Shown piece by piece: positions 8,000 through 49,360 of a DNA stretch of 64,000 nt. This DNA comes from Eledone cirrhosa (taxonomy: Eukaryota), in the NCBI GenBank assembly GCA_964016885.1, contig OZ024742.1:344348001-344412000 (forward strand), written 5' to 3'. A program made the translations under genes and the position numbers. Positions within the stretch are counted from its first letter, which is position 1, and each line of letters begins with the position of its first letter. Under the pieces are notes generated by a model that searched no databases, was not told the DNA's origin, and worked only from the letters and a program-made list of their open reading frames with translations.

Positions 8000-8720
8000 A
8001 TTTTATAAATATCATGTCGCATCCTTCACCCCCACTAAAAGACACATCGCCATACACCTCTCATCTTAGTACCATTGTGTTCTATCTGTCCTCTCTGTCA
8101 GGTTTTACCTTGTAATCCATAGTAGCATCCAATCCTGTAAATATAATGTCGATCATATCACCCCATCGCCACCCCCACCCCCACCACACACATCGCTATA
8201 TGTCTACCATCCCACATCTACCAACCTTGTTCCCCCATGTTCCCTCTGTCTTTTATAACCTACAATCCTTCGTAAAATTCGATCCTATAAATATTCTGTC
8301 GCACACACCACCATCACCACCTCCAAATACATCTCCATACTTCAACAACCATTAACATCATTAACATCACCAACACATATCATCCCTCCCTCTCAGAACC
8401 ACTGTGTTATATCTGCCCTCTTTGTCAGGTTTTAACTTATAAACCACCGTAACATCCGATCATGTAAATATATTGTTGGACATACCACCCCATCGCCACC
8501 ACCACCACCACCACTACCACACACATCGCTATATGTTCACAGCCTTGTTTTCCCCGTGTTCCCTATGTCACTTTTTAACCTGTAACCCATCGTATAATTC
8601 GATCCTGTGTATTTTTTGTCGCACACAACACCTCCACCGCCACCACAAGGCACATCTCCATACTTCAACAATCATTAACATCATTAACATCACCAACACA
8701 TATCTTCCCTCTCTAAACAA
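8000..8720. repeat. Old diverged tandem repeat, ~160 bp monomers in ~325 bp dimers
   Basis: acc.ttgt..tc..ctgtc..ttt.acct.taa.cc..cgta..atcc.t.aaatat recurs at ~8070, 8225, 8398 and 8545. Confidence 0.6.
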
Positions 8721-14466: not shown

Positions 14467-15703
14467 CTAGCATTAAAGCCCGGCGTTGCTCGGAGTCAGT
14501 AAGTTACCAAAGTTAGGTTGCACCACCCATTTTATAGCAGCACTTTTTTGTCTGCCAGGCACTGGGTGAATGAATTGCAGACCTGGACTGCCGAAGCAGG
14601 AGCTGCGCCAGCAGTGACAATTGTAGTTTCGCCTATGGATATTATCTCTGTGCAAAGAAGTGTTGAAATTTATTGTTTCACAGTACTTGCACAACACGCG
14701 CGTAGACGATGCCAATCGAACAACAGAGCTGCGATTGAGTTGTTCTGCATGGTTGTCTAATGTGTGTTTTCTAAATTTAAGACAGTAGGGAGGAGTGTGA
14801 TATGAGGGAGAGTTAGCTGCTGTTTCTAGCAGGTTTAGTGACCTCATAGATGATATGTGTTTTCTAAATTTAAGACAGTAGGGAGTGGTGTGACAGGGGG
14901 GAGAGTTAGCTGCTGTTTCTAGCAGGTTTAGTGACCTCATAGAGGATATGTGTTTTCTAAATTTAAGACAGTAGGGAGGGGTGTGATATGGGGGAGAGTT
15001 AGCTGCTGTTTCTAGCAGGTTTAGTGACCTCATAGAGGATATGTTTTCTAAATTTAAGACAGTAGGGAGTGGTGTGATATGCAGGAGAGTTAGCTGCTGA
15101 TTCTAGCAGGTTTAGTGACCTCATAGAGGATATTATTGTGTATAGTAAATAAACTGATACTTCTTTCTTCCACGTTCGTTGAGAGGTTTTAAAAAAGATT
15201 TATCGCTATTTTTTTTTGTTGTTGAATAAATGTATCTGTTGCTTTTGAATAATTGTTGTTTCGTATGAAATGTAATAAGTTCGCTTTGTCATTGAAGTAA
15301 ATAAATGTTTGACCGTTCCACACTAAAAAACAAACGTTCTCTCTCTCTCTCTCCCTCTCACTCTCTTCTCTCTCTCTTCGGCGTTCCTAAATGAAGTTTG
15401 TAAGCTTAAGCGTATATAAGAGAAAGTTGCAGCATGTATGTAGTTTTATCGAATTTTAAGGAGAGTAGAGCGATGGTATCAGATTGTATTAGAGGGGTAA
15501 AGCGTCATGTATTTAGTTTTATCGATTATTTTCGTAATTGTGGGTGAGGTTGAATGAAATAAATAGTCGTTGACCTGAGTTAGACCATTTACAACATTCC
15601 TACAGACTTTGAGTCGAATCGGTTTGAAATTATGCAAATGTATAAACAGGGAACATGCACAGACACACACACACAACAACAATCTGCCTTTTATAGATAA
15701 TGA
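14467..15703 (-). mobile_element. Non-autonomous Helitron with exact boundaries
   Basis: Minus strand runs TC...hairpin-CTAG, inserted between A and T with no TSD. The empty site tacaata^tgtagaaatatt is visible at 16019-16038. Confidence 0.9.
14761..15131. repeat. 93 bp tandem repeat x4 inside the Helitron
   Basis: ctaaatttaagacagtaggg at 14771, 14864, 14957 and 15048. Confidence 0.95.
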
Positions 15704-15813
15704 TGTATAAATATTTCGTATCTCCAAAGAAATACGGTTTTAGGAAGCCGTAGCTATCCAAACACCGGAGGGCTAACGCCCTCTGGTGATGTCCAGGAGA
15801 AGCAAGGGGGACA

Positions 15814-15857
15814 ACCGTCTATGCATTTCAGGCTTAACTGGCCTTCGTCAGGACGGT
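15814..15857 (-). ncRNA. Minimal type I hammerhead ribozyme, intact
   Basis: accgtc CTGACGA aggc cagttaa gcct GAAA tgca TA gacggt. Stem I is 6 bp, stem II 4 bp, stem III the palindrome ATGCAT. Confidence 0.9.
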
Positions 15858-15900
15858 CCCTCCCACCGCTTGCGACGCTGGACTAGTAGACAGGCGAGAA

Positions 15901-15951
15901 TATATACTTTTCTCGTCTGTGTAAATGAGGTGATTAATCTCATTTGCATAT
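15901..15951 (-). promoter_or_regulatory. Candidate octamer plus TATA promoter of family B
   Basis: Minus strand ATATGCAAAT-N31-AAAGTATATA, 49 nt upstream of CTGACGA. Function is inferred. Confidence 0.5.
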
Positions 15952-16586
15952 GAACCTGCATAAGTTGGCTTAACTTATAATAAAAAAGAAATAGGATTTC
16001 GCTTCAAGCATAGCTTTATACAATATGTAGAAATATTTCGTATCTCCAAAGAAATACGGTTTTAGGAAGCCGTAGCTATGCAAACACCGGGTGGCTACCG
16101 CCCTTTGGTGATGTCCAGCAGAAGCAAGGGGGACAACCCTCTATGCATTTCAGGCTTAACTGCTCAGTTTAAAAGAAAATAGCATAATACTTGGCTTCCT
16201 CCATGGGTAGAACAATTAAAATCGTTTAAAATATGATTAAAAACACAAAAGAAGAAGTAAAAGGACCCATAACACTATCACACTGTCACTCACTTATAAT
16301 AGCTGGGTCTGCTACACAGACAGGGTATATCAGACAAGGGAGTAGGTTGTGAATCTACTTAGTCTCTCAAAAATAATTATACAGATATGAACTTCAGATT
16401 ACATCAGGATTTCACTACATTTTATATATAGTGTATTTTTTAATACACATTATGAAACAGAGATCTGTCAGCCTATCTCCCTTTGTTTGTTGAAAAAGGA
16501 AGTAAGTGACATATATATATTCTATTTCGATGGCCGTTGACACTGTTGAGTTCTTCCGCCCTTGCCGGATTTTGTTATTATTCATT

Positions 16587-16631
<45 letters not shown>

Positions 16632-16772
16632 TCAATGGCAACATTGAGGACCGAAAAAATTAGATTACCGATATAAAAGACACAGAAGCGAAAAGCAAAA
16701 ACCAACCAAACAGTGAGTGTGTTCTGTTATTAATTCTGGCAATATTACACAAATATGATCCTCCCCAAGTAT

Positions 16773-16863
<91 letters not shown>

Positions 16864-16867
16864 TGTA

Positions 16868-16919
<52 letters not shown>

Positions 16920-17159
16920 GAGAGAGAGATGAATATATAACGGTATGCTCATGATGAAAAGAGAGTCAGAGATAGAGATATGCAGATAGAACTGAACATT
17001 ACTAAACTTGTTTCTCTTAAATCCTGTACAAACGAGATTTTACATTCTTCTAAATGTAATTATTATTGCTTAGAGTCAGGTGATCGCCTGAAAAGCCGAT
17101 CATGAGATGACCATCCATCATATTTTATTTAAGAAGTGATCAAATATTTATATATATAT

Positions 17160-17322
17160 AGGAACGAGTAGGACCCCGACGGCTGAGCTCAAGCCGTTTC
17201 GTCGAAACGGCTTGAGCTCAGCCGTCGGGGTCCTACTCGTTCCTATTACCCACTCTACTACCCTAAGTATTGAGTACTTTGTTGCGTTATGGTCCACCTG
17301 GTTCCTTACCACATGTCCTTCG

Positions 17323-17325
<3 letters not shown>
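17160..17325. mobile_element. Fold-back fragment of pseudo-LTR family A
   Basis: Near-perfect palindrome ggaacgagtaggaccccgacggctgagctcaagccgtttcg-t-cgaaacggcttgagctcagccgtcggggtcctactcgttcc, lying in (TA)n. Confidence 0.85.
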
Positions 17326-17404
<79 letters not shown>

Positions 17405-17730
17405 AATACGTTTTTGAATTTGTTTGAATGATTTCTGAAAACGTTTGTGCTGAAACAGATATTGTTATACATTGGAAGAGTCATGTTTCCATTAAAAACA
17501 CACGCACCCTCTATTTTTCACTTCAATTTATTGTAAATTTCCGGTTGGCTGGTTCGTTGGTTGGTTTGATAACCGGATGGATGTTTATAAATTGTCAAAG
17601 CTCTGTCGTCACACATTCTGTAAACTTCTCAGTGACTGGGTTTTTATTTTGTGTCTCTCCTTTGTTCTGTCCTACACAAGAGGGTGTAGGACAGAACAAA
17701 GGAGGGACACAATATAAAACCCAGTCACTG
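17405..17730 (-). mobile_element. Pseudo-LTR relic of the Naiad-like family with terminal hairpin
   Basis: Similar to 43385-43630 and to the reverse complement of 46335-46575. Degenerate hammerhead at 17593-17637. Inverted repeat at 17630-17730. Confidence 0.75.
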
Positions 17731-18340
17731 TCCTTCATCATCGCCGCCATGTCCTGCGTCTCCAAGAGATCAGTGTCTGTCCATAGGGCATCAACATATG
17801 TCAACCTCGGTCTCCCTCTTATAGTGTGTCAGTGTAGGGGCTCCCACGGGATCACTGAGTGCAGTGTCAACTCTGAATGTCGGTGAGTATGTCCAGCTAA
17901 CCTCAATTTTCTCTGTGTTACTTTCGAGCTGACTTTTGGGAGGGTCCCGTACAGCTCTGAGTTCTTGATCCTCAGAGTATACTGATTAATGTTCAGAACC
18001 ATCCTCAGCATTCTCGTGTAGCACCCATCCACCATCTGAGTGAGTTTCTTTGTCAGTGTCCAAGTCTCAGAAGATAGTGGACCTGATATCACAGCTCTAC
18101 ACCAATACCAAAGCCCAAGTCATTACACCTGATGGGATGACAGAGTTCTTTGAGATATTGCCTTGCGCTGGACAAACACCTGGACTCTAGCTTTACTGTA
18201 ACACCGGCTCAGAGCAGGAGAGTTAAGGCGAAAAAGATATCGGATGCTGAATTTACTGACGACATAGTTTTGGTGGGAAACAGTCAAGGAGGCAGAGGAT
18301 TTTATGCAGTGAAAATTGTGTCGATGAGTGTGGATTAATA
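17730..18340. mobile_element. RTE-clade LINE fragment with an inverted segment
   Basis: Minus 17730-18085: SETWTLTK..DGCYTRMLR..RLAGH..RGRP. Plus 18150-18338: TPAQSRR..ISDAEFTDDIVL (decayed FADD region). Confidence 0.7.
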
Positions 18341-18347
18341 TATATGC

Positions 18348-18410
<63 letters not shown>

Positions 18411-18411
<1 letters not shown>

Positions 18412-19000
18412 TAGCAGAAATACCCGGCGTTGCCCGGGTGTAAGTCGAACTTTGCTCTGTTGTTAAAATGTGTGAAAGTTACTTCCCGCGCATCACAGGT
18501 GCAAAAACCTTCGAACCTCAAGGAAAAAAACGGAGTTTTTTCTTGTCCGTCTGTATCCTAAAATTTTGTAATTGAGCATAAATAACGGATCAATTGTAGG
18601 TTCATAGTGTATCGTTGAAATTGTTCTTTGGACGGCTGACGGAAGTCAAATTCACTTAAAATTGAATTTTCAGTTGATTTTTAAAGCAGGGTGAAAAAGT
18701 CGATTATTTTTCACACACTTTTTTTCTTTTTACAATTTTCCGCGCTCACATGTGCAGAAGAAGAAATAAAAGGGACTTTATCTGAACCGCGGCATAATGG
18801 CGTTTTTTTGGGACAGTTTACAAGAAAATCGGACGTTCCTGTAAAAAGTTTTCCCATATGCAACTTTGCCTTGTTTTTTTGCGCAAAGTCGAACCCCCTG
18901 TTTCAGTTTTATTGATTTTTTACATGAATGCGTGACCTCTGAAGTAGATTTGAGTACCTAAAAACCTGTCCGGTAAATTTGTTATAGGTGAAAAAAAGTT
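18411..19000 (-). mobile_element. Helitron-like 3' terminus; distal boundary uncertain
   Basis: ctagcagaaatacccggcgttgcccggg directly after (TA)n. Confidence 0.55.
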
Positions 19001-19021
19001 GATCAAAATTGTTGCCTATAA

Positions 19022-19140
19022 GTTCTGAAGAGCCGCTCCATTTTTACCTAAGTTAATAATCTTCATCTGAACCAGATCAATAATGATCTATAATCATTTG
19101 ATCCAGAAACATTAGATGGAGTAGCGAAACAATTGTAAAC
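19022..19140 (+). ncRNA. Type I hammerhead with long stem II insert
   Basis: gtt CTGAAGA gccgctccat..atggagtagc GAAA caattg TA aac. Confidence 0.7.
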
Positions 19141-19157
19141 GGACATTATTATTATTA

Positions 19158-19290
19158 TTTCAAATTCCGCCGAGGTTAACTTTGCCTTTCATCCTTACGG
19201 GGTCGATAAAATAAAGTACCAGTAAGGCACTGGTTAATTGCTGGCCTTGTGTCCAAAGTAGAAACAATTATTATTATTATTATTATTATT
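19158..19290 (+). mobile_element. 5'-truncated SINE with Meta-like domain and (ATT)n tail
   Basis: ccgaggttaactttgcctttcatccttacggggtcgataaaataaagtaccag. Related copies at 26320-26505(-), 33725-33935(+), 38915-39100(+), 39405-39622(-) and 39636-39855(-). Confidence 0.75.
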
Positions 19291-22200
19291 GTTCTTTGAG
19301 TCTCAGTCATTGATGTTAGTTAACTTGAAAGTTTGTTGAAATGAATATCAAGCCACTACCTGCAGCTTCAGATATTCAGGACGTATCGGAGGGTTCTTGC
19401 TGTTCCCAGCAAGCATGCCTTTTGAAGTGTTCCAAAAAGCGGGGAGGGGCCAATTTTCTTTAACCATACCTGGAAACTCTTTGAGATAGTACCTAATGCG
19501 CCTATGACAATCGGGACCACTTTGACTTCATGGCAATTCCAAATCCTTTTTACCTCCCACTTGAAGTCCTGGTATCGGTTAATTTTCTCCCTCTCCTTCT
19601 CTTGCACTCTCGTGTCGAATGGGCAGGCCACATCCACAATCAGGCACGATCTTTTTTCCTTGTCCAAAACCACCAGGTCAGGTCTATTGTGTTCCAGTTT
19701 CTTGTCCGTCTGTATCCTAAAATCCCACAGCACCTTCACCTGATCGTTTTCTATCACCGCCTCTGGCTTATGCTCATACCACTTCTCAGAATGTGGTAAA
19801 TTGTTTACTTTGCATAGGTGCCAGTGTATCACCCTGCCCATCACATCATGTCTCCAGCCCTTATAGTGAGTCTGGGCTAGGTGTTTACACTCGGATACAA
19901 TGTGAGCCACAGTCTCCTCTCTCTCTCCACAGATCCTGCACAGTGGGCTAGCCTCCTCCTTATAAATGTGGTGTTTCAACCACTTCGTTTTGAGGACCTG
20001 CTCCTGCGCAGCAATTAAGATTCCTTCTGTAGCCTTTTTAAGGTCTCCTCTTTTCAACCAGTTCCATGTCTGTGGATCTCTAGATTCAGTTTTCTCAAAG
20101 AAGGTACTATGAAGGGATTTTTCCTGAAGGCTGCTCTTCCTCCTTGATGTTATTTCCTCCTTGGACATCCCCTGGCCTATTGTCCCCTCCTTCAGTACAG
20201 CTCTGATCATTGGCTCCTTACTATCAGTCACGTATTTGTGTAGGTTGTTTTTCTCCATCTGAACACAGTCCTCTATGCTGATAAGACCTCTTCCACCTTC
20301 AGATCTCCTTAAGTAGAGTCTATCGACATCACTCCTCTTGTGGAACATGTTGTAGATAGTCAATAGCTTCCTAGTCTTCCTATCCATTTCTTTTTGTTCA
20401 GCAACATTCCACCTCAGAATTCCCGCACTGTACCTAATAATAGACACAGCTCGGGAATTTACTGTCAACAAGCACATCCAACTCCTTCTCACTCTTCCCG
20501 AAGAGCTTAAATTCGTCCATGAAGAGGAGGTGATTGATGGCAAGCCCTCCCTTTCTCAACCTGTATCCTGCTCTCACTTTTCGCAGTACACTGGTCAGGG
20601 GCATCAGGGCAAGGACAAACAACAGAGGGGACAGACTATCTCCCTGGAAGATACCTCTCTTTATCTTCACGCTTCCCAAGGATTCTCCAGTTGATGTTAA
20701 CTCTGTTTCCCAGGAATTCATACTTTTGCCCAACAACTGCCTGATGTTATCTGCCACCTTGAATATCTCCAGGCTTTTGGTGATCCAAGAATGAGGCACC
20801 ATGTCAAATGCCTTTTTGTAGTCTATCCATCCCATGGCAAGACCAGTGTGTCTCCTCTTGCAATTCCTCATTACCATCTTATCAATAAGTAACTGGTCCT
20901 TTGTACCACGTGACTTCTTTCGGCATCCTTTCTGTTCGTCCGGTAACAAGTTGTTTGTGTGGAGGTGATGGTAGATTTCCTCAGACATAATGCTTGTCAA
21001 CAGTTTCCACATTACGGACAGACATGTGATAGGTCTATAGTTGGTAACATCATTACCCTTGATTCGGTCTTTCATTATCAGAACTGTGGTACCTTTTGTC
21101 AACCACTCTGGTACCTCACCTGACATCAAGCAGTCATTGAACATGGTTGTCAGTTTCGGGTGGAGGGATGTTATGTTTTTAATCCAATACCCCTGCACAC
21201 CATCTGGGCCAGGTGATTTCCAGTTGGTTAGTTTTTTGGCCTGCCCCTTAAGAGTTTCAACTGTGATACTCAAATCAGTTGGTTGGCGTGCCTGTTCACT
21301 GATCTCCTTCTGTACTGTCTCAATCCACACTGCCTGGTCATTATGTTTAACATCCTGCTCCCATATTCCTCTCCAGAATGTTTTAGTTTGTTCCGCCTCA
21401 GGGATCAAGTCGTTGCCTCTTTCTTTCCCTTCAAGCTGTCCAAACAGCATCTTCTGGTTGTTGTCGAACATGCGGTTCTGTCTATACTGGCTGACTCTGT
21501 TCTCGTATCGCCTGATTTTTGCACTTTTTGCTACAATGCGTTGCTTCAGTTCCTCTATGATGATATTTACCTTTTTCCTCCTAGTTTTGTACTTTATTTC
21601 CAGTCTATTTTTAGTGTCTATGTTTTTTAGTGTCCCATTCAGTAGTGACTCAAGCTTTCCAATGTCATTTCTCATTTCCCTGATTTGACCACTCAGTCGT
21701 TTCTTCCACCAAGGCTCTGCTCTTTCTTGTCTGTTGTTTCCTGTCGCTTTTATACCAAGTAGTTTCCTCACCGTATTTGCTGTTGCTTTGAGGATATTGT
21801 TACACTGGTGAAGGCTCCTCGCCTCAAGGTATGGGATGACTTTGTTTACCTTAGCTGTTGTTTTTTTTAACTTTTTCCTGTCTACAAACCTTAGGTTCAT
21901 AGGTCTCCCACTATCATTGTTCAATTCATCTACCACTAAGTTTAGGATATCTACCAAATCTTGTCCTAGCCCGTCAGCATTCATCTCCTCAGTGGCCGTA
22001 TTTCTGTTCCAGGTATTATTTATCTCAGCATTCAGATCATTGTCTGTTTCGGGTGGTTTCTCCGTTCTCTCGACCTCTTCACCTTCATTTCCCACTGGCT
22101 CGTTTGCCTGGCATACTCCACCCTCCATCTCCAAGCTAATCTCTCTGCCCAGTTCCTCCAGTTCCAGCTCGCTTATCCACCCATTAGTTCTTATTACCCG

Positions 22201-22635
22201 AGCCTGCCCGGCCAGTTTTTGTTCATCTAATTTAAATGGACCAATCTCGTTCCAGATGTTATGCATCCTTTTCCTATAGTCTTTCTCCTTGGGGTTACTC
22301 TTCAGGTAACATTGCATAACAGTTCTATTCAATTCTTTCGTCCAGTTGGTTCTGGTCCCTTTCCTTCTTCTTCTTCCTCCGACACCAGCAGTATTTGATT
22401 GACAGCCATGTCCCTGCTGCTGAGCCAGGGAGCACCTGTTGGGTGGGAGTCTGTCACATGACATTCTAGTCTCCATTTCACCGTTATTCGAACTGTTTAG
22501 GTTCGACATTTAAACACTCTTATCGAGGATTGGCGAATGTATGGTTACATAACCACCGGTGAATTACTTGTTTCCGGTGGTTTCGTCACTCCACGTGACT
22601 TTTGTGTGGCATTATCACGCTGTAGACGAACCCAA
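19291..22635 (-). mobile_element. Near full-length R4/Dong-like LINE (RT plus RLE), internally deleted
   Basis: ORFs 20434-22509 (NWKSPGPDG, NYRPITCL, WIDYKKAFD, GIFQGDSLSPLLF, HLLFMDE) and 19368-20543 (CRIC..ETVAHIVSEC, RHD, NRPD..D, VPIVIGALG). (TAA)n tail. Confidence 0.92.
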
Positions 22636-22835
22636 ACAAACAAACAAACAAACAGGCAGAAAACCCCCCAAAAATGAATAAGCATAAGTTTCATTGTAAT
22701 GTAGTGTTTGAATATCTGACTTAGTTTTCCCCTTCCTTTCTCTGTCCGTCCGTTTGTTTTTCTCTTCATTTTTATTTCCTTTACGTTTTTCGCTGTTGCT
22801 GTGCTGCTTTGATTTTGATTTTTTTTTTTTTTTTG

Positions 22836-23693
22836 ATTTTGACCGGGTCATCAATTCAGTCTATTTATATATTTTGATGTTTTCCTCTTTTAGTGGGAAT
22901 TCTACAATGTAGCAGCGGATAGCGGGAGTGAATAGCGGCGGTAGTGATACTGAGGCAGCGGCGGCGGGGGTGGTGGCGGTGCTGTGCTAGCAGCAACTAG
23001 TAGGAGGTAGTGGGAGGGAATAGCGGCGGTAGCGATAGTGAGGAAGCGGTGGTGGTGATGTGGTCGTATTACTGTAGTGATGGTGTTGAAGTTGGAGTAG
23101 AAACTTGAGTCGACTTGACCAGAGTTTTCATCGTGGTAGTGGTGGTGGTATTGGTGGTGAAATTATCTTTAGTGAAATTATCGTTAGTCGCGTATATGTG
23201 TTGACATTTACCCATAATATTGGAATTAAACATTTTGTTAAAACTAAAACTTGATTTTGATTATTGTTTTTTTTTATTTTTATTTTGATCGGGTCATCAA
23301 TTCAGTCTATTTATATATTTCGATGTTTTCCTCTTTTCGTGAGAATTCTACAATGTAGCAGGGGGTAGCGGGAGAGAATAGCGGCGGTAGTGATATTGAG
23401 GCAGCGGCGGCGGTGGCGGTGCTGTGCTAGCAGCAACTAGCAGGAGGTAGTGGGAGAGAATAGCGGCGGTAGCGATAGTGAGGCTGCGGTGGTGGTGATG
23501 TGGTCGTATTACTGTAGTGATGGTGTTGAAGTTGGAGTAGAAATTTGAGTCGACTTGACCAGAGTTTTCATCGTGGTAGTGGTGGTGGTATTGGTGGTGA
23601 AATTATCTTTAGTGAAATTATCATTAGTCGCGTATATGCGTTGACATTTACCAATGATATTAGAATTAAACATTTTGTTAAAACTAAAACTTG
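22836..23693. repeat. Tandem duplication, period ~446 bp
   Basis: ttttga(c/t)cgggtcatcaattcagtc at 22837 and 23283. Both units end aaaactaaaacttga. Confidence 0.9.
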
Positions 23694-24111
23694 AGGCAAT
23701 AGTAATAGTAATTATTATTATTATGCTGAGATTGGTGGTGGTGGTGGTGAAATTGCCGTTATCGGGCTGTTGTGTTTAGTGTACACAGAGAGGTGATGGG
23801 GTAGGTGGTGTATCTAGTTTCTGATGTTGGTGAAATTGCTGTTATTTGGCTGTTCTATATAGTGTAGACAGAGGGGGTTTCCTTCCATTTATAACCATTT
23901 TCTTTTTGAATATAAAATGTATAATACAAAATTGAATATTTGAGCGATATAACAATATATTGTGGATCCGAATTTTTTGGGACTCAAGCTGGATGTTTTA
24001 CGCAACATTTGTACTAAGAATTGTTATTTCACAATTGATTTAAATATGTTAAAAAATCAAAACTTACGGGAGCGATTTCTCGACCTTCTATCCAGCATGT
24101 GTGTCTTCTTC

Positions 24112-24176
<65 letters not shown>

Positions 24177-24809
24177 CTTACGTTAAACTATAATTACACT
24201 CTTTATTCCTTACATTAAACTGCAACTATGTTGAGACTCTTTAAATAATGTCTTCCTTGTGAAATTTGTGGTCTTGTTTTGCATAACTAATGAATATATA
24301 TATATATATATTGGTAAAAGGAAAAAAATATGCTGACAAATTGTTCCCAGTGAAATATAATTTAATTAGGAATAAGTAAAAATTAGTAATAGTATTGGTT
24401 AGTATTCAGTTTTGGTTTTAAGTTTTACCGGTTGTGCATTTCTAATGCTTTTCAAAAATAATTTTGAGATAGAGCGCCCGTGATGTTTGCTCTAATCTGA
24501 TTAGTTTTGGAAATTCTACCTGTTTTATGTAAAAAAAGTGGCTCGAGATGTATGATAAAATTCTTGTGGTCAAAACAATTTTGATTGGTCGGGAGAGGTT
24601 ATGTGAATGTTAAAAATTGATTTTGCGCCAAATGTAGGTTTTCTCGGCTGATTGAGAAGTCACTGAAAAATAAGTCTTTCAAGACAAATATGTGTGTGTG
24701 TGTGTGTGTGTAGTAGTAGTAAAGAGGCTCGTTGTTGTGATAATGGTCAGCAGGGATGTGTGTGCGAACCGCAGCCTGTTGACAGTTCAAATGCCTATTA
24801 AGACAAGTG

Positions 24810-24844
<35 letters not shown>

Positions 24845-25040
24845 GGCAGAGTAATTCGTGGTAGAGGGATGGTCAGTAGGAATGTGTCTGTACGTGTGTG
24901 GGGGATATTTTAACATGTTAAAAGATATTTTTCAGCTCTTGTCTTATACGGAGAAGTGTGGGTGTGTGTTGTGTGTATATGTCTCTTTGTATGTTAATGT
25001 ACGCGTGTGTATGTGTGTGTGTATATATGTGGGTGTTTGT

Positions 25041-25095
<55 letters not shown>

Positions 25096-25439
25096 AATGT
25101 GTGTGTGGGTGGACCAGTATTTTTGTGATACTGGTAAAAATGGTGTACATTATTCGATATTTTCAGTAAAAACGATTCTCTCAATAGAACATAAAAAACC
25201 TTAATAATAAAACGTGTGAAATGATATATAGTATTGGCATAATACCAAGGTGTGTGTGAGTGTCCAGATTGTACGTACTGCAAGGGGAATCCATTAGGCC
25301 TTGCCGTATTGGAATACTTTTGTACAAATATGTATGTGCCCATCAGTGTGCAATGCATGTGTGCGTATATGTATGTGTGTGTGTCGGCACGTTTATATCT
25401 ATAGACATCAAAAGGTACTTATATATATATATATATATA

Positions 25440-25805
25440 TAAGATCAAAATATGTTTAAAAGAGTTTCAAGTATTTTATTATGCGCATTTCAAAAACAAA
25501 TATCATCATGGGATGATATCTGCGTTCTCATCAGATAAAATATGGAGACATGATATGAAGCTTAAAAAACACTTGTGAATAGTGAAGTTTTAAATCAACA
25601 TATCATGTCTCCCTATGTTATCTGATGAGAACGCAGATATCATCCCATGATGATATTTGTTTTTGAAATGAGCATAATAAAATAATTGGAACTCTTTTAA
25701 CCATCTTTTGATCTTATATTATTTATACTCCAGTCCTACAAACTGTAGAGTGCTACTTATCCGATATTTGCATTGCTTTATTGTGCTACAATAAAACTCA
25801 CCTCC

Positions 25806-25810
<5 letters not shown>
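25440..25810. mobile_element. Fold-back hammerhead unit, family D
   Basis: 25440-25557 is inverted against 25598-25716. Hammerheads at 25476-25538 (-) and 25618-25680 (+): ttat CTGATGA gaac..tttt GAAA tg(c/a)gca TA ataa. Confidence 0.8.
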
Positions 25811-25859
<49 letters not shown>

Positions 25860-25865
<6 letters not shown>

Positions 25866-26165
25866 AATAAAATAACAAGGACGATTGGTTACTCCTTCAT
25901 TACGTTTATTGGTTGGTGACGTGCGTTTCGCCGCTGATCAACTCAAGGTTCGATCTGTATCGATCTATTACTATTACAAGGAGTCTGACGTGTCGCGGAT
26001 TACAGAGCCAACCAATAAACGTAATGAAGGAGTAACCAATCGTCCTTGTTATTTTATTTCACTATAATACACTCTGTCTAACTCTACACCTCGACACTGA
26101 AGTGAACCTAATCATCGAGTGCTCACCCAGGTGAACCTACAGTAACTCCAAGTTACTCTCCCTGG

Positions 26166-26168
<3 letters not shown>
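25860..26168. mobile_element. Rearranged fold-back copy of family E
   Basis: 25860-25965 is the inverted copy. 25983-26168 is the sense copy with the 3' half of the ribozyme deleted. Matches 9237-9476. Confidence 0.8.
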
Positions 26169-26211
<43 letters not shown>

Positions 26212-26237
26212 TTTCATATAGTGTGTGTATATAGTAT

Positions 26238-26293
<56 letters not shown>

Positions 26294-26319
26294 GTGTGTG
26301 TGTGTATACTTATATAGTT

Positions 26320-26505
26320 GTTTCTACTTTTGGCACAAAGCCAGCAATTACACAGTAGATTACTGGTACTTTATTTAATCGATCCCGTAAGGATGAAAGG
26401 CAAAGTTAACCTCGGCGGGATTTGAACTCAGATCATAAAGAGAGGTTACTCTTTGCGTCAAAGCATGGCGTTCGACCCTCTACCGATACTGCAAATCCAC
26501 CGCCC
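26320..26505 (-). mobile_element. tRNA-derived SINE (Meta-like)
   Basis: Minus strand has gggcggtggatttgcagtatcggtagag..gagttcaaatcccgccgaggttaactttgcctttcatcc. Confidence 0.75.
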
Positions 26506-26754
26506 TTATACTTATATAATATATATATATATATTGTCATTCAGAGTTTTAAGTACCTTGTAAACAGACATTTTGATACATTCTAATTAATACAGCTAAA
26601 AAATGACACATGTTAAATTTATATATTACTAATACCATGTTACATACTCTCTCATACAGATCCACGTACTTAAACATCTCTTCTTTCTCTTATTCTCTTC
26701 TTATTTCTCTCTCTCTCGAAAAAAAATATATGTATATGCGTGTGTACGTATATA

Positions 26755-26810
<56 letters not shown>

Positions 26811-26892
26811 AATATATAGAATAAGGAAAAGCGAAGTAGTTTCATATGTATAAATATATATATATATATATATACATATATATATGTAAATT

Positions 26893-26984
<92 letters not shown>

Positions 26985-26987
<3 letters not shown>

Positions 26988-28244
26988 CGAAAGAAATGTG
27001 GTAAGGAACCAGGTGGACCATAACGCACTCAATACTTGAGGTAGTAGAGTGGGTAATAGGAACCAGTAAGACCCCGACAGCTGAGCTCAAGCCGTTTCGA
27101 CGGCTAATTCTGGACTAAATGAAAATTTATCCTGGTATTTAAATAGCCGATCTTCTCAAGGGGTAATTCCATATATGGTCAAAGTGATTGTCAAAAATCA
27201 GTAGTAATTCTGTGGTTGCAAATTAGTAGGGGAGATGGTGGCTAAACCTGCCAGTAGGAGAAAGAGGGGAGGGGTGGAGTAGACCCAATCAAGCGTTGGT
27301 AGTGCCAGCTACAGCTGGGCATGAGGTCAAAGAAGATACAGGGGAGGGGGAGGGGGAGGAAGTCGGAACGGTAGGTAGAACAAAGAGGGGTAGAAATAGG
27401 AAAGAAAAAATACTGAGAGTGAAGTAAAGCAAATAAGTGTAAAGAAAAAAGTAAAGTAAATTAAATTCTACGACCTAGGTGTCAGGCTATTGTTAGGCTA
27501 GAATAAAATAAAGAAATAAAGAAAGAAGTAAATAAATAAATAAATAAATAAATAAGGAAATAAGTAAAAGAACTAGGTGGGACGGAAAAGGCAAGGACCC
27601 TTTTAAGAGGTATAAGCACGTAAATGATACGGTGACGGGTCAACAAAAGGGGCCAAAATACTAAAGAGACTACCACGAAATAAACAATAAAGGTTTCCAT
27701 CCCGGGCCAGCAACGACCCAGTGCAGCAAAGTGAACTTGTACGAGATAATAATTCTGAGTCCCGAGAAAAATATATACTAATGCTAACTCTAAAAGATCT
27801 AAAACAAGCTACATGAAAGTTCGTACGAAATAAAGGTAGAATACGGAGAAATAAATTCAGAATCCACCCCGCCCAGAAGAAAAGCGAAGCAAGAAATACT
27901 GAAACGAAAAAATAAGGCATAAGTGCCACTAAGAAATATAGAGGGCACAGAGAATAGTGGGAGCGGTCGGAAAAAGGGGGCAAGTATCCGGGGTCTAAGC
28001 CAACTGCTATAAAGGGCGGAGTCCGTATCTTCTTTGACCTCATGCCCAGCTGTAGCTGGCACTACCAACGCTTGATTGGGTCTACTCCACCCCTCCCCTC
28101 TTTCTCCTACTGGCAGGTTTAGCCACCATCTCCCCTACTAATTTGCAACCACAGAATTACTACTGATTTTTGACAATCACTTTGACCATATATGGAATTA
28201 GCCGTCGAAACGGCTTGAGCTCAGCTGTCGGGGTCTTACTGGTT

Positions 28245-28248
<4 letters not shown>
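26985..28248 (-). mobile_element. Penelope 3' UTR plus pseudo-LTR family A with inverted terminal copy
   Basis: 27165-27340 is the reverse complement of 28025-28200. Hammerhead at 27071-27164. (TA)n flanks. Confidence 0.85.
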
Positions 28249-28285
<37 letters not shown>

Positions 28286-28503
28286 GTAAGTATGTATGTA
28301 TGCGTACATACATATATGTATACAGACGTACAGTAGCAAGTATATATATACATACAGGCACACATATATATATGCACGTATCAGTTTACCGAACATTTAT
28401 TATAATGCTCGGTTTGTTCGTTTGTAAACAAACAAACAGCCTGAATTACGCCGTACAGTGTTTAGGCAACCACGTCACCTTTTTGTTCAACACTGACACA
28501 GGA

Positions 28504-28546
28504 ACGATGTACTAGTTTCAAGCTTATTAGCTATCGTCAGCACCGT
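28504..28546 (-). ncRNA. Minimal type I hammerhead ribozyme, intact
   Basis: acggtg CTGACGA tagc taataa gctt GAAA ctag TA catcgt; stem III is the palindrome ACTAGT. Confidence 0.88.
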
Positions 28547-29194
28547 ATACCTTTCTGCCAGATGGTTGAACGTCCGAAAGTATATACTTTCCTTATGAAA
28601 ATTAACCGCTGAGCAGCCTAATTTGCATATCGAGTGAGTTCAGTCGGCCAGGCGCACCGAAAACGATAAATGGAATAGAATGAAACGAAATTTCATTTCT
28701 CACTCTTAGTACGGCACTTACTTAAATGTAAGTATGCATGTATACGTACATACATATATGTATACAGACGTACAGTAGCATGTATATATATACATACAGG
28801 CACACATATATATGCAAGTATCAGTTTACCGAACATTTATTATAATGCTCGGTTTGTTCGTTTGTAAACAAACAAACAGCCTGAATTACGCCGTACAGTG
28901 TTTAGGCAACCACGTCACCTTTTTGTTCAACACTGACACAGGAACGATGTACTAGTTTCAAACGGAGAAACCGAGCATTATAATAAATGTTCGGTAAACT
29001 GATACGTGCATATATATATGTGTGCCTGTATGTATATATATACATGCTACTGTACGTCTGTATACATATATGTATGTACGTATACATACATACTTACATT
29101 TAAGTAAGTGCCGTACTAAGAGTGAGAAATGAAATTTCGTTTCATTCTATTCCATTTATCGTTTTCGGTGCGCCTGGCCGACTGAACTCACTCG

Positions 29195-29244
29195 ATATGC
29201 AAATTAGGCTGCTCAGCCGTTAATTTTCATAAGGAAAGTATATA
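29195..29244 (+). promoter_or_regulatory. Candidate octamer plus TATA promoter of family C
   Basis: ATATGCAAAT-N30-AAAGTATATA, 40 nt upstream of CTGACGA. Mirrored at 28581-28630. Confidence 0.5.
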
Positions 29245-29596
29245 CTTTCGGACGTTCAACCATCTGGCAGAATGGTATACGGTGCTGACGATAGCTAATA
29301 AGCTTGAAACTAGTTGATCGTTCCTGTGTCAGTGTTGAACAAAAAGGTGACGTGGTTGCCTAAACATTGTACGGGGTAATTCAGGCTTTGTTTGTTTACA
29401 AACGAACAAACCGAGCATTATAATAAATGTTCGGTAAACTGATACATGCATATATATATGTGTGCCTGTATGTATATATATACATGCTACTGTACGTCTG
29501 TATACAGATATGTATGTACGTATACATACATACTTACATTTAAGTAAGTGCCGTACTAAGAGTGAGAAATGAAATTTCGTTTCATTCTATTCCATT

Positions 29597-29633
<37 letters not shown>

Positions 29634-43387: not shown

Positions 43388-46300
43388 TGTTATGCTTTGG
43401 GAGGGTCATGTTGCCAATAAGAAACACACGCATCAGTTGCTTTCACTCCAATTTATTATAAATTAAATTTATAAATTTAAGAATTTATAAATTTCCGGTT
43501 GGTTGGTTGGTTCCACAGCCGGACGGTTGTTCATATATTGTCAAAGTTCTTTCGTCACACATTCTGTGACCTCTTCAGTGACTGGGGATTCTTTTCTTTG
43601 TTTTTGTGCCTCCCCTTTGTTCTGTCCTACACCATCTTGTTTTTGTGCGTATTGTGTGCTTAGTTTGCGCATGTGTTACATCCGGGTGTCTTTGTGTGTT
43701 TATATTTGTTTATTTATTTATTTTTTTTTTTTTTTACATGTTACTGGTTGGTTGTTTGTTCTATGTGTGTGTGTGTGTGTTTTCATGTTGTCCTTAATTG
43801 TAAGTTGTGATGTTGCTATTCCATTCATGTTTTCTATTTAATTTTGGTTGGAGTTCATTTATGTTTATTGCCTCTGTGATTTGTCTAAACATTGCGTCTA
43901 TTTTTCTGTGTGTAGATTCTACTTTTATTTCTATGTTCTCTAATTTACCCTTATGTTCTAATTTAGCATGTTTGTGGAGTACAGATGATTCTTTTTTCCA
44001 TCTTGAAGCACTCGCCAGTGTTCATTTATCCGTTCTCCTATACTACGAGCTGTCTTACCTATGTACACTATATTCTTATCTCTACATTGTCCTTCAGTAC
44101 ATCTTATGCTATATACTACATTTCTAGTTTGACAGTTAATATGGGGGGCTTAGTTTACAGATTATACATTTCTTATCTATACAGGGAGGTCTTTGAAAAG
44201 GGTATGTATTGCTAATAAGTGTTTTTATGGAGGTACCTGGTCTTTCTACTATCTTAATATTGAGTTTATGTTTATCTAGGGCCCTACTAAATTTGTAAGC
44301 TAATTCACCTCTAGGGGTTGTATTGATGAACATTACACTCTGGTATTTATTGCTAACATACCATGAGTTTCTTCTATTAACCTTATTCCTAGTTCTTTCT
44401 ATTCTATTCCAAAATTTGCTCCTATACAAGGGGCAGGTCCCATTTGTATCATTATTTACCATTTTTTCCCATTTGGTTCTGGCTCCTCTATATACTCTGA
44501 TGTTATTTCTCTGATTGTAACCAGAGAACTACATACGGTGGATGAAGTGTTGTATGTGTCTCTCTAGTTCTTTGGTGTTGCACATGCAGGACACGTTTCT
44601 CATCACCCGTACCAATCCGCAATCATTATGTTGATTTTGGTGTGGTCCGAAACAGCTGTGTTTGCTTGGGTAGTCTATAGTAACTCTAATACTCTGGTTG
44701 ATGGAGTTAGCTATTTGTTGGATGCTTTCCGTGGTGTTTTTCTCTAATTCCTGACTGTTCTCTAGTGGGGGTGTTTTTACTACGATGTTTATATCATCAA
44801 CGTAGCGGGAGTACATTATCAGGGTTAAGAGGTTGCTGTCTTCTAATTGCTCTTTAAGTTTAAGTTTAAGTCTACAGTGCCACCATACCATAAATAGGTT
44901 AGCTATGTCACCTGCAATGCTAACACCAATGGCTTCTCCCTCCTCTTGGGCATATGTTTTTCCATTAAATTTGAACATATGTTCCTTAAGGGTTAATTTT
45001 ATACTGGCCCCCACCGCATGTGCAATCATTTTCTTTAGTTGATCCTGGTTTTTGGGGGCCCGTATGGCTCTGGTCCACCCGATCCATCTATCTGTGTTTG
45101 GTTTTCTTGGCCATTGAGGTAATGGTAGGTGGTCTGCCTCTGTCTGGTCTTGTAGGGCACATGTTGCTAAGGTCATATGTATCTAGATATTCATTACTAT
45201 AGGTAAATTTAAGTAGGAGTCCCAGCTCATTGGTATCAATCCCACGGAATTCAACATTGCACTCACTGATCATTTATACGCATTTCTCCACAGCGAAATC
45301 CACGTCAATGGATGGATATAGTGACACAACATCCATACTACCTATTATGCAGTTTGTTAGGTCCCGAGATCGGTTACCCTCGCCGATTCTGCTGAGGAGG
45401 TCCTCCGTGCTGTCACATATATCTGGGGACATTTCAATGATGTGGCGTATGATCAGAGAGAGGAAGTAGGAAAGTCTGTAATTACTAGCAATGTTAGCTC
45501 CACAGACTGGCTGTGGTACTGTGACAGGGTCAATACTCGTGTTATGGTCTTTTCGAAGCCCATACAACGCTGGCACGTCATTGTTCCAGGCCTGGAAGTT
45601 GTTGGCAGTCCTTTTATTGGGCTGCATTATATTTGTCCACATCATCATATGGGCATTGAGGGTTTTCTCCCCCATCCTCATGCTCTTGTGGTGTTACTTC
45701 TCTTGTGTTAGTGATGTGGGGTTGCATTGCCTGGATGTAGTTTGACAGACTGTCAACCGACATTCTGCCAGACTTGTCTGTTGGAAAGCATGCAATTTCT
45801 CCACTACGCGAGCGCTGCATGAGCTTACGCAAGCCATTTACATATTTTTCTTCCAGTTGCTGGGCCTCCATTCTATTTTGCTTCTTGCTATGCTGTTCTA
45901 TAATATTTCTAAGTTTAGATCTAGCTACACTAAATTGTGCTTCTGTTTGTTCATCGACCTGCGACGGCAATTGCGTGCGTTTGTTAAAAGCTAAAGTCGT
46001 GGCGTGGACTCGTCGTAGGTCGAAGGACATATCGGAAGGATTATAAAAAGTAGAGTTCCAGGCTGCTGCTTTATGTGTACTATTGCTATTGTTATTGTTA
46101 GTTGTGTTGTTTCTACTTCTATTTCCACCAACAGCCTCATGGTTGTTTCTATGTCTCTCATTATTACTCCTTTCTCTTTCCTCTGGCTCATTGTTATTAT
46201 CTACTCTATTTTGTGTGTCTGTGTGTTCGTCCTGGTTATTTTCTCTGTCAGTATCGATAGTCTCCCTTCTCCTTTCAATCCCATTACCTTTCCTTACTTC

Positions 46301-46520
46301 TGTGTTACTGTCATTACCTGCTTTCTGTGAGGAGATCACAGAATGTGTGACGAAAGAACTTTGACAATATATGAACAACCGTCCGGTTGTGGAACCAACC
46401 CACCAACCGGAAATTTATAAATTCTTAAATTTATAAATTTAATTTATAATAAATTGGAGTGAAAGCAACTGGTGCGTGTGTTTCTTATTGGAAAATGACC
46501 CTCCCAAAGCATAACAATAT
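43385..46520 (-). mobile_element. Naiad-like Penelope element, frameshifted, with 3' pseudo-LTR and inverted 5' partial pLTR
   Basis: PTDKSG, LYGLRKDH, SMDVVSLYPS, GEAIG..FMVWW, RYVDD, PLYR, CxxxxCxxC, VVY..YIGKT..ERINEH..LNRKHEW. 46336-46520 is the reverse complement of 43385-43569. Confidence 0.9.
43540..43582 (-). ncRNA. Type I hammerhead in the pseudo-LTR
   Basis: gtca CTGAAGA ggtcac agaatgt gtgac GAAA gaac TT tgac. Confidence 0.85.
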
Positions 46521-46830
46521 CGGTTTCAACATACGTTTTCAGATAAAGAATCTTGCTAAACAAATTCAGAAACGAAATATATATATATATACAATATATT
46601 AACAAATGGAAACTATATTTATAAAACCATATTTATATTATTATACGTATTTCAAGGGCCACCAAGGCAAATTATGGTGCGCTTTTGAATCCCAACAAAT
46701 TAAAGATAACCTCTGCATATATATATATGTGTGTGTGTGTACATATATATGTATATATATATATGTATTCTTATGTACATATATATATATATATATTTAT
46801 ATGTGTATGTGTGTGGGTGTATAGATAGAT

Positions 46831-47887: not shown

Positions 47888-47924
<37 letters not shown>

Positions 47925-47955
47925 ACAAGTATAGACATACATATGTCTATACTGA

Positions 47956-48012
<57 letters not shown>

Positions 48013-48014
48013 AT

Positions 48015-49088
48015 TAGTAAATTTGTATTCCAATGTTACTAAGTAGTTGCATTGGATGGAGTTAACCGACGTCAGAGATTGCTCAACGTATAATAAAGTG
48101 TGTTTTAAAATCCGGAGAAAATATGGAGAAGAAGTTTATGAAATGGAAATGCGGGTATACAGAATTTATTAGGTAACAATTGTTTCTATAGTGTATGGGT
48201 TACCTATACCTCGCTATTTGAATAATATAAAAATATTATCATAAACCGAAGGTACACTGTAAGCAAACACACCATGTCGTCAGACCTTTGTATTGGAATG
48301 ATATGAAAATATTTTATACACTAGATAAAAGATAAAGAAGGAGGTAGGAAGAGAAGGGGAAGAGGGAAGTGAGTAAGGTGGAGGGAGTCTTAGGATTTAA
48401 GACTGTCAGACTAGTAGAGATGGTAAGGGGAGAATGTTTTGGCAGCAGTTAGCTTAATGAGGCGTGTTAGTGTTGGCGGGGGAAGTAAATTCTTCTAGTG
48501 GTGTTGTTCGGACAACATTTAGTTAAAGGGGTCAATGTGGTACAGTGTCACAGACAAGTTATTGGGGCTATTATAGTAGCAGGTTATTTCTAAAGGGGTC
48601 CAGAAAACAGTGTTTAGTACTATTATTATAGAAAGCCATATCTTGTGTATAAACATATAAAACAGAAATTTACAAACGGTGGTGTAAAAAGGTAACATTA
48701 TATGCATTTAAAAAAAGAAAAAGTCGTTTCAAACGATGGTTACAGTATAGAGAACGTTCAATTTTGCTGTTCAAAAGTTTGTTTACCGACGTTAAAATGC
48801 AGTATATCTCCAAATTGCATAACTTGCAGAATCGATAATTTTGCTTATATGCAGGCGCAGCTGCAATAATTTGCCAATCAAGGGAGAATGCTTGATTGTT
48901 CCTCCGGAGCTGCCAGGCTTTATCGGCGAGGGTTGTTACGGAGCGCATTTTCTCGTGCCTGATCGTAGATCGATGTTGGTATAGGCGAGCCTTGAAAGAA
49001 GTTGCGGTACATCCGACGTAATACCATTTGTTGGTTCCGGAATTTATTGTACATCGGTAGACAATATTGCGTGCTAGGCACTGGTTAT
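48015..49088 (-). mobile_element. 5'-truncated Penelope-like element: GIY-YIG, 3' UTR and hammerhead
   Basis: CLARNIVYRC..YYVGCT..FKARLYQH..CKLCNLE..LLN..CNH. Hammerhead at 48171-48287: aggt CTGACGA catggtgtg..tacactata GAAA caattg TT acct. Confidence 0.85.
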
Positions 49089-49094
49089 ATATAT

Positions 49095-49185
49095 ATATAT
49101 CTTCAGTAAAGACATATGTATGTCTATACTTGTGTATATATGTATATATCTTCAGTAAAGACATATGTATGTCTATACTTGTGTA

Positions 49186-49235
<50 letters not shown>

Positions 49236-49360
49236 AGTATAGACATACATATGTCTTTACTGAAGATATATACATATATACACAAGTATAGACATACATA
49301 TGTCTTTACTGAAGATATATATATATATATATACACAAGTATAGACATACATATGTCTGA
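49095..49360. repeat. Palindromic array of a ~34 bp unit centred on (TA)n
   Basis: cttcagtaaagacatatgtatgtctatacttgtg x2, then (TA)n, then its reverse complement x2.7. Another copy at 47923-47957. Confidence 0.85.

What the first reader, a model, noticed from the sequence alone, without database searches (positions are those of the whole stretch)
15814..29321. Two unrelated tandem hammerhead families share an octamer-N30/31-TATA-ribozyme cassette
Seen: family B (~320 bp unit, minus, 15814-15951) and family C (~440 bp unit, 29195-29321 and mirror 28504-28630) look unalignable by eye. Both nonetheless read ATATGCAAAT, then 31 or 30 nt, then AAAGTATATA, then 49 or 40 nt, then a minimal type I hammerhead (CTGACGA, short stem II, GAAA, 6-nt palindrome, cleavage A). 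Neither has an ORF and both are tandem. Known: ATGCAAAT is the POU/Oct octamer used with TATA boxes in snRNA, H1 and H2B promoters; animal non-LTR retrozymes are tandem hammerhead repeats that give circular RNAs. Inference: these units carry their own POU-factor promoter, starting transcription just before the ribozyme so that cleavage in tandem copies yields unit-length RNAs. This would be a self-promoted retrozyme system.
Basis: partly seen in the sequence, partly recalled or inferred. Interest (0 to 1): 0.85.

Follow-up and report, generated by a model that had tools for sequence, protein, structure and literature searches.

The report
Retrozymes carrying a host snRNA-type promoter
Many thousands of short, protein-free jumping repeats in this animal genome carry a self-cutting RNA motif just behind a DNA cassette that resembles the promoters of the host's own spliceosomal RNA genes, so they likely borrow that housekeeping machinery to get transcribed; a newt repeat is reported to do something similar.

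Summary
The motifs and spacings are as reported. The cassette occurs 21,123 times genome-wide (reversed control 12), in at least eight hammerhead-repeat groups. B and C are non-autonomous Penelope-type retrozymes: two fixed 3' ends, 5' truncation and inversion, (TA)n targets, covarying ribozyme stems, no attached ORF. The main new result is that the cassette resembles this genome's own snRNA promoters. TATGCAAAT-K-AG sits at -76 to -78 in U6 genes, and an ATCAGT core sits at -55 to -59 in 19 U1/U2/U4/U5 promoters. The repeats keep both, at positions my search did not require, with spacing nearer the Pol II genes, and B and C lack the host 3' box. Best reading: an internal snRNA-type promoter, probably Pol II, reads through to the next unit. 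Caveats: no RNA data; the PSE match in B and C is imperfect; the within-family conservation test was inconclusive; the window copies are about 1.5 units with one ribozyme each (one mutated); B had no dimers. Precedent: newt satellite 2 (snRNA-type promoter; seen only as a citing sentence). New variant of a known kind.

The parts
15703..16162 (-). Family B insertion, about 1.43 units of a 322-bp retrozyme; 5' end truncated inside the previous ribozyme, short 3' end
15939..15950 (-). B: T-octamer-N-AG module, like host U6 at -76 to -78
15928..15934 (-). B: PSE-like core (imperfect; rank 50 of 886 local positions)
15901..15906 (-). B: TATATA box; predicted start about 15876-15877 (inferred)
15813..15858 (-). 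B: minimal type I hammerhead, 2-bp palindromic stem III, predicted cleavage after 15820
28281..28961 (-). Family C inverted (mirror) segment, about 1.5 units
   Evidence: L031
28581..28629 (-). C mirror: octamer-AG, PSE-like core, TATATA
28504..28546 (-). C mirror: intact minimal type I hammerhead, predicted cleavage after 28510
28957..29599 (+). Family C direct segment, about 1.45 units, long 3' end running into (TA)n
29196..29207 (+). C: T-octamer-N-AG module
29212..29218 (+). C: PSE-like core (rank 14 of 886 local positions)
29239..29244 (+). C: TATATA box at the centre of a 16-bp palindrome; predicted start about 29269 (inferred)
29279..29321 (+). C: hammerhead with mutated cleavage site, predicted inactive

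Best explanation
B and C are non-autonomous Penelope-type hammerhead retrozymes whose unit carries a cassette resembling the host's snRNA promoters, which likely recruits the snRNA machinery (POU factor plus SNAPc, probably with RNA polymerase II) to start RNA just before the ribozyme. SHOWN: octamer-AG and TATA as in host U6; a PSE-like core and spacing nearer host U1/U2/U4/U5; no host 3' box in B or C; covarying ribozyme stems; Penelope-type insertion ends; no ORF. INFERRED: a start 57-58 nt after the core, 8-25 nt before CUGA; read-through into the next unit, so that the RNA contains the next promoter; reverse transcription in trans by a Penelope RT from two internal sites (+118/+165 in B, +228/+287 in C), which copies that promoter into each long enough new insertion. 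Where two intact ribozymes lie in tandem (C arrays), double cleavage would release unit-length RNA that could circularise.
For: Cassette 21,123 vs 12; C ribozyme 24,786 vs 0. U6: ATGC(A/T)AAT at -76 to -78 with TATA at -30 in 4 of 7 distinct upstream regions; the best U6atac gene has a one-mismatch version at -77 (1 of 8 loci). Pol II snRNA: core at -55 to -59 in 19 distinct promoters, 18 keeping CA. Across 8 repeat groups, 4 of 56 unrequired columns are invariant (T-1, A+9, C+17, A+18) and G+10 is 7 of 8; all fall on these host motifs. Host core matrix at offset 15: combined p 1e-6; the other 27 offsets p >= 0.014. Octamer-to-TATA offset 40-44 in 14 of 15 representatives versus 46-48 in U6/U6atac. 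3'-box score: host 7.1-18.2, B 4.7, C 2.3. B has a T6 run inside copied units. A family E copy (L095) holds the octamer module in three 33-bp copies. Stems: 93.8% paired, 14 two-sided changes, 0 of 500 shuffles; compensatory C variants. Two 3' ends: B 27 + 13 of 55, C 15 + 10 of 28, as in the PLE tail (PMC11167929).
Against: No expression or start-site data. B and C match the host core imperfectly (scores -2.3 and 1.9; E 9.7). The offset was chosen after looking, and the 8 groups are not independent. The octamer is absent from 19 of 19 Pol II snRNA promoters near the gene (one reverse copy at -399), which carry AATTAA at about -90 instead (17 of 19); it is a U6 feature here. Host core-to-TATA distances (21-32) overlap the U6 range (31-33). 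Within C, motif columns are not significantly more constant (p = 0.18), AG is GG in 43% of rows, and a common subfamily has a 7-nt deletion between TATA and the predicted start. B showed no dimer in 40 locus-strands. Other hammerhead repeats here amplified with no octamer found. No Penelope partner with matching ends was found.
Confidence: 0.6

Rival explanations
1. The cassette is a U6-like type 3 promoter read by RNA polymerase III.
For: TATGCAAAT-K-AG plus TATA is found in U6/U6atac and in none of 19 Pol II snRNA promoters. Group L169 reads much like U6 L130 just after the octamer.
Against: Octamer-to-TATA offset is 2-8 nt shorter than in U6; the core is YCAG, not the U6-type CCT. B carries an internal T6 that is copied within insertions. 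C has only T4 runs, so this argument is weak for C.
Confidence: 0.17
2. An ordinary mRNA-type promoter (POU site plus TATA plus initiator, as in H2B or immunoglobulin promoters, recalled), with no SNAPc; the PSE likeness is chance or a relic.
For: Perfect octamer and TATA; CAG lies about 30 nt after the TATA in most groups; weak core match in B and C.
Against: The invariant CA at the host PSE position across 8 groups and the near-identity of family E with a U2 promoter.
Confidence: 0.12
3. The cassette is not a working promoter now: a passenger captured once, or an RNA/DNA structure (the TATA is the centre of a palindrome) used by the RT or endonuclease; copies are transcribed from outside.
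For: 16-bp palindrome around the TATA in C; inconclusive within-family test; a subfamily with a 7-nt deletion amplified; hammerhead repeats without an octamer exist.
Against: Motifs survive between groups whose other sequence is unalignable; the deleted subfamily has lost the palindrome but keeps octamer, core and TATA; several groups have no palindrome.
Confidence: 0.11
4. On origin only, compatible with the above: the units are detached pLTRs of an RT-coding Penelope element that itself uses this promoter and that I did not sample.
For: 24 of 57 Xenopus retrozyme families match annotated TEs, nearly all PLE ends (bioRxiv 10.64898/2026.07.22.740005); Penelope-type ends here.
Against: No cassette copy had an ORF continuing into it (60 loci mapped; 119 loci screened, 9 followed up). 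Two PLE families checked lack the cassette. Only two of many families were checked.
Confidence: 0.3

Closest known systems
Newt satellite 2 (Coats, Zhang and Epstein 1994; paper not held; seen as title and one citing sentence in PMC2220036)
   Same: Tandem hammerhead repeat reported to be transcribed by Pol II from an internal snRNA-type promoter.
   Different: Here at least eight groups with more than 20,000 dispersed copies; octamer, core and TATA are packed within 50 bp and can be compared with the host's own snRNA genes. That the newt promoter has an octamer and a PSE is my recall, not read. Whether the two share an origin is unknown.
Animal non-LTR retrozymes (Cervera and de la Pena 2020, PMC7229834, passages; Li et al. 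2026 bioRxiv 10.64898/2026.07.22.740005, parts 1-3 of 5)
   Same: ORF-free 300-450 bp units, under 45% GC, type I hammerhead, monomers to multimers, PLE-linked.
   Different: No endogenous promoter is described in what I read ('promoter' occurs only for T7 in the first paper and 0 times in the second). B lacks dimers, so it fails Li's definition of an active retrozyme in my sample. Circular RNA is untested here.
Penelope-like element pLTRs (Frangieh 2024, PMC11167929, parts 1-2 of 4; Craig 2021, PMC8557442, passages)
   Same: Partial tandems, inverted 5' segments, two internal RT start sites, AT-rich and microsatellite targets, promoter inside the repeat.
   Different: No ORF; tails of about 47 and 58 nt rather than 30-40; the promoter resembles an snRNA promoter rather than the intron-overlapping internal promoter of Penelope and Chlamys.
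SNAPc-dependent snRNA promoters (insects: Hernandez 2006, PMC1761439, abstract and passages)
   Same: Bipartite proximal layout in which small differences separate Pol II from Pol III genes.
   Different: The repeats join a module seen here only in Pol III genes with a core and spacing seen in Pol II genes, inside a mobile unit.

Membership tests
Non-LTR retrozyme | Type I hammerhead with core and three stems | tested here: met
   Core and covarying stems I and II; stem III only 2 bp; not in the shown Rfam rows; single-strand folding not better than shuffles for B and C
Non-LTR retrozyme | ORF-free unit of 150-450 bp, low GC | tested here: met
   322 bp, 43% GC and 444 bp, 38% GC; no ORF of 120 aa or more over the window copies
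Non-LTR retrozyme | Two or more tandem units with complete ribozymes (family C) | tested here: met
   49 of 168 locus-strands, up to 7 in a row; overlapping loci inflate the count
Non-LTR retrozyme | Two or more tandem units with complete ribozymes (family B) | tested here: not met
   0 of 40 locus-strands; longest 5' extension stops inside the previous ribozyme. B works like a retrozyme but is not filed as an active one.
Non-LTR retrozyme | Self-cleavage and circular RNA | not testable with these tools
   No RNA holder listed
Autonomous PLE pLTR | Flanks an RT/GIY-YIG ORF as its terminal repeat | tested here: not met
   sample limited to about 120 loci and two PLE families
PLE-mobilised element | Two 3' ends (tail), 5' inversion, AT or microsatellite target | tested here: met
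Pol II snRNA-type promoter (host) | ATCAGT-type core | tested here: inconclusive
   Clear in E, partial in C and B; significant only across groups
Pol II snRNA-type promoter (host) | Core-to-TATA distance as in U1/U2/U4/U5 | tested here: met
   25-28 versus host 21-32, median 26
Pol II snRNA-type promoter (host) | AATTAA at about -90 | tested here: not met
   17 of 19 host genes have it; not seen upstream in alignment A1
Pol III type 3 promoter (host U6) | TATG(C/G)(A/T)AAT-K-AG module | tested here: met
Pol III type 3 promoter (host U6) | Octamer-to-TATA offset 46-48 and CCT core | tested here: not met
   40-44 and YCA
snRNA-type promoter | SNAPc binding and a mapped start site | not testable with these tools
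   Needs ChIP or CUT&Tag and PRO-cap

The most novel reading that the evidence does not exclude
Animal retrozymes are snRNA-gene mimics: a class of mobile elements that internalised the normally external SNAPc promoter, using tandem or circular geometry to carry it inside their own RNA. Here the promoter is a hybrid of the host's Pol III activator module and Pol II core with the 3' box dropped. The same strategy in newt satellite 2 would then mark an ancient or repeatedly evolved rule, and would explain why retrozymes are strongly expressed in all tissues.
Probability: 0.35. Interest if true: 0.8.

Novelty: new variant of a known kind. Interest (0 to 1): 0.62.

Why it matters
Animal retrozymes are reported as highly expressed in somatic and germ tissues, which the authors call atypical for retroelements (PMC7229834), and the retrozyme papers I read name no promoter. 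A host snRNA-type promoter inside the unit gives a base-level, testable answer and links the old newt result to an invertebrate-looking genome. More than 20,000 copies could also compete for POU and SNAPc factors. As a by-product, this genome's U6 and U1/U2/U4/U5 promoter layouts are defined, useful for guide-RNA expression and for asking what sets polymerase choice.

Tried and rejected
Rfam scan: only microsatellite-driven miRNA hits among 150 rows shown. Sequencing runs: no RNA holder listed; the four contig sets laid on L008 are of unrecorded kind and gave nothing on starts or circles. Other organisms: 13 metagenome matches to a tight cassette pattern, none followed by a hammerhead fold on reading, judged chance; 0 in viral contigs; no related animal genome is held. 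Idea that B and C are linked through intermediates: not supported; the groups B/F/L117 and C/L102/E align internally, and between them the best z is 2.7. Idea that GCAG is a fixed initiator: fails in the C subfamily with the 7-nt deletion, where the same offset falls on a TA step. One-round-of-a-circle test (5' extension by 3'-end class in B): no difference, p = 0.99. 'TATATA intact 35 of 60' is an alignment artefact of that deletion. Search for the mobilising PLE: an intact 794-aa RT/GIY-YIG family and the window's own PLE show no cassette and no similarity beyond low-complexity DNA. Twelve weaker U6 hits were fetched; the 7 located lacked the cassette and look like pseudogenes. Literature: ten searches listed no paper on an snRNA-type promoter in invertebrate retrozymes; only listings were seen for most, subscription papers are not covered, and supplements were not opened. 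The scan's index gave nothing relevant.
Full report
Observation. The window lies in G000, a 3.0-Gb genome; its repeats look cephalopod-like to me, which is recall and untested. The pattern octamer-N27-36-TATAWA-N35-60-CTGANGA has 21,123 matches against 12 reversed. The first 100 listed are mostly C, then B. A variant aimed at other groups gave 531 against 16 and exposed further groups. The C ribozyme alone has 24,786 exact copies. B and C do not align outside the motifs (126 of 200 shuffles score as high), so common ancestry is neither shown nor excluded.

What the elements are. The ribozymes hold up by covariation: in 8 B-group sequences 93.8% of cells pair, with 14 two-sided changes (0 of 500 shuffles; slid controls 21-52% paired), and C has compensatory stem I variants in 29 and 8 of 103 copies. 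Stem III has 2 bp around a palindrome, so cleavage likely needs a dimer, as described for the newt ribozyme (PMC6155905, passages). Single-strand folding was unremarkable for B and C. In 60 mapped loci the copies are 5'-truncated within the unit and often carry an inverted 5' segment. The 3' ends fall in two classes (B 27 and 13 of 55; C 15 and 10 of 28), mostly running into (TA)n. This is the tail signature that PMC11167929 (parts 1-2 read) traces to two internal RT start sites. No copy had an ORF leading into it. Of 119 loci, 14 had PLE protein hits; of 9 regions followed up, 7 had the repeat 5' of a truncated PLE piece on the same strand and 2 on the opposite strand. An intact 794-aa PLE family (30 loci) and the window's PLE at 43400-46560 lack the cassette. 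So these are non-autonomous PLE passengers with an unidentified driver, in line with the 2026 preprint (parts 1-3 read). C forms arrays (49 of 168 locus-strands, overlaps included); B did not in 40. The window copies are about 1.5 units with one ribozyme each, and the + copy of C is mutated at the cleavage site, so they cannot release unit-length RNA by double cleavage.

The promoter. I compared the cassette with the host's snRNA genes. Of 7 distinct U6 upstream regions, 4 have ATGC(A/T)AAT at -76 to -78 followed by K-AG, a CCT core and TATA at -30; the other 3 lack it. The best U6atac gene has a one-mismatch version at -77; the other 7 loci lack it and look like retrocopies. Nineteen distinct U1/U2/U4/U5 promoters have an ATCAGT-type core at -55 to -59 (18 keep CA), a TATA-like word at -25 to -35 (18), AATTAA near -90 (17) and no forward octamer within 400 nt. 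Seventeen repeat representatives align collinearly from octamer to ribozyme. They were found with a pattern that required octamer, TATA and CTGANGA, so only the other columns count: among 8 group representatives, 4 of 56 such columns are invariant (T-1, A+9, C+17, A+18), G+10 is 7 of 8 and no other exceeds 6 of 8. The first two and G+10 extend the U6 module; CA is the Pol II core. A matrix from the 19 host cores scores offset 15 with combined p 1e-6, the 27 other offsets at p >= 0.014. The offset was chosen after looking, the groups are related, and B (rank 50 of 886) and C (rank 14) match much less well than E (rank 3). Family E is nearly identical to one U2 promoter between core and TATA, and copy L095 holds the octamer module three times. 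Octamer-to-TATA offset is 40-44 in 14 of 15 representatives versus 46-48 in U6/U6atac; core-to-TATA is 25-28 versus a Pol II median of 26, range 21-32. The host 3' box is absent from B and C and weakly present in E.

Against. In 84 C copies picked by the ribozyme alone, 65 reach the octamer; in 60 distinct rows the octamer is intact in 53, but motif columns are not significantly more constant than others (p = 0.18), AG is GG in 43%, and one common subfamily has a 7-nt deletion between TATA and start. Other hammerhead repeats show no octamer. Expression could not be assessed.

Mechanism. Shown: anatomy, host likeness, ends, copy number. Inferred: POU plus SNAPc recruit a polymerase that starts 57-58 nt after the core, 8-25 nt before CUGA, leaving the ribozyme whole. 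With no 3' box the RNA runs into the next unit and so contains the next promoter. A Penelope RT starts at one of two sites ahead of that promoter's unit end and copies backwards; most copies extend past the octamer (65 of 84), so the template must be a read-through multimer or a circle. C copies reach back across earlier ribozymes; B copies stop at most 213-223 nt before the octamer, inside the previous ribozyme and short of the predicted start (4 cases), which fits an uncleaved linear template but is a small sample. Pol II is favoured over Pol III by core, spacing and B's internal T6; insect work shows that small promoter differences set this choice (PMC1761439, abstract and passages).

Comparison and verdict. 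It works like newt satellite 2, reported to use an snRNA-type Pol II promoter (citing sentence only; original not held). C qualifies as a non-LTR retrozyme; B behaves like one but failed the dimer criterion. Ten literature searches listed no description of such a promoter in invertebrate retrozymes; unopened supplements and subscription papers could hold one. New variant of a known kind; interest 0.62.

Noticed in passing
window 25420-25800; L099, L185: A further hammerhead family (D) in direct plus inverted copies. It has an octamer with TATAAATA at offset 46, the U6 spacing, but pointing antisense to the ribozyme of its own segment; seen in three loci.
   Followed up: partly
window 43400-46560 (-): Degraded Penelope-like element (RT and GIY-YIG pieces) with an inverted 5' pLTR and a hammerhead at 43578; no octamer cassette.
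   Followed up: partly
window 47900-49360 (-): 5'-truncated GIY-YIG end of another PLE family behind a 49-bp tandem/inverted repeat.
   Followed up: no
window 1440 (+), 7745 (-), 14305 (+), 22305 (-): More hammerhead-core matches; 1440 is a truncated family E copy; 7745 lies near a 327-bp two-copy repeat (8064-8711).
   Followed up: no
L377:1400-1530: A U6atac copy joined directly to an inverted family E promoter piece, a possible chimeric retrocopy; several U6 and U6atac copies sit in (TA)n like the retrozymes (L143, L374, L375).
   Followed up: no
L120, L122-L125, L127, L128: Retrozymes lie 5' of truncated PLE fragments on the same strand in 7 of 9 selected regions: template switching or a shared target preference.
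   Followed up: partly
L081, L116, L169-L172, family E: A splice-donor-like GTRAGT or CAG-GT lies between the predicted start and the ribozyme core in several groups; unexplained.
   Followed up: no
L120:7800-9000: A 310-bp tandem hammerhead family with no octamer found, a natural control group.
   Followed up: no
G000 C19:31.78-31.84 Mb, C3:307.35-307.45 Mb, C2:180.97-181.0 Mb, C9:32.80-32.82 Mb: U6, U2, U1 and U5 genes lie in long tandem arrays; read-through RNA from such an array would contain the next promoter, a possible route of capture (speculation).
   Followed up: no
L304-L332, L333-L337: A young PLE family with many intact 794-808 aa RT/GIY-YIG frames and no canonical hammerhead found in its flanks by my pattern.
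   Followed up: partly
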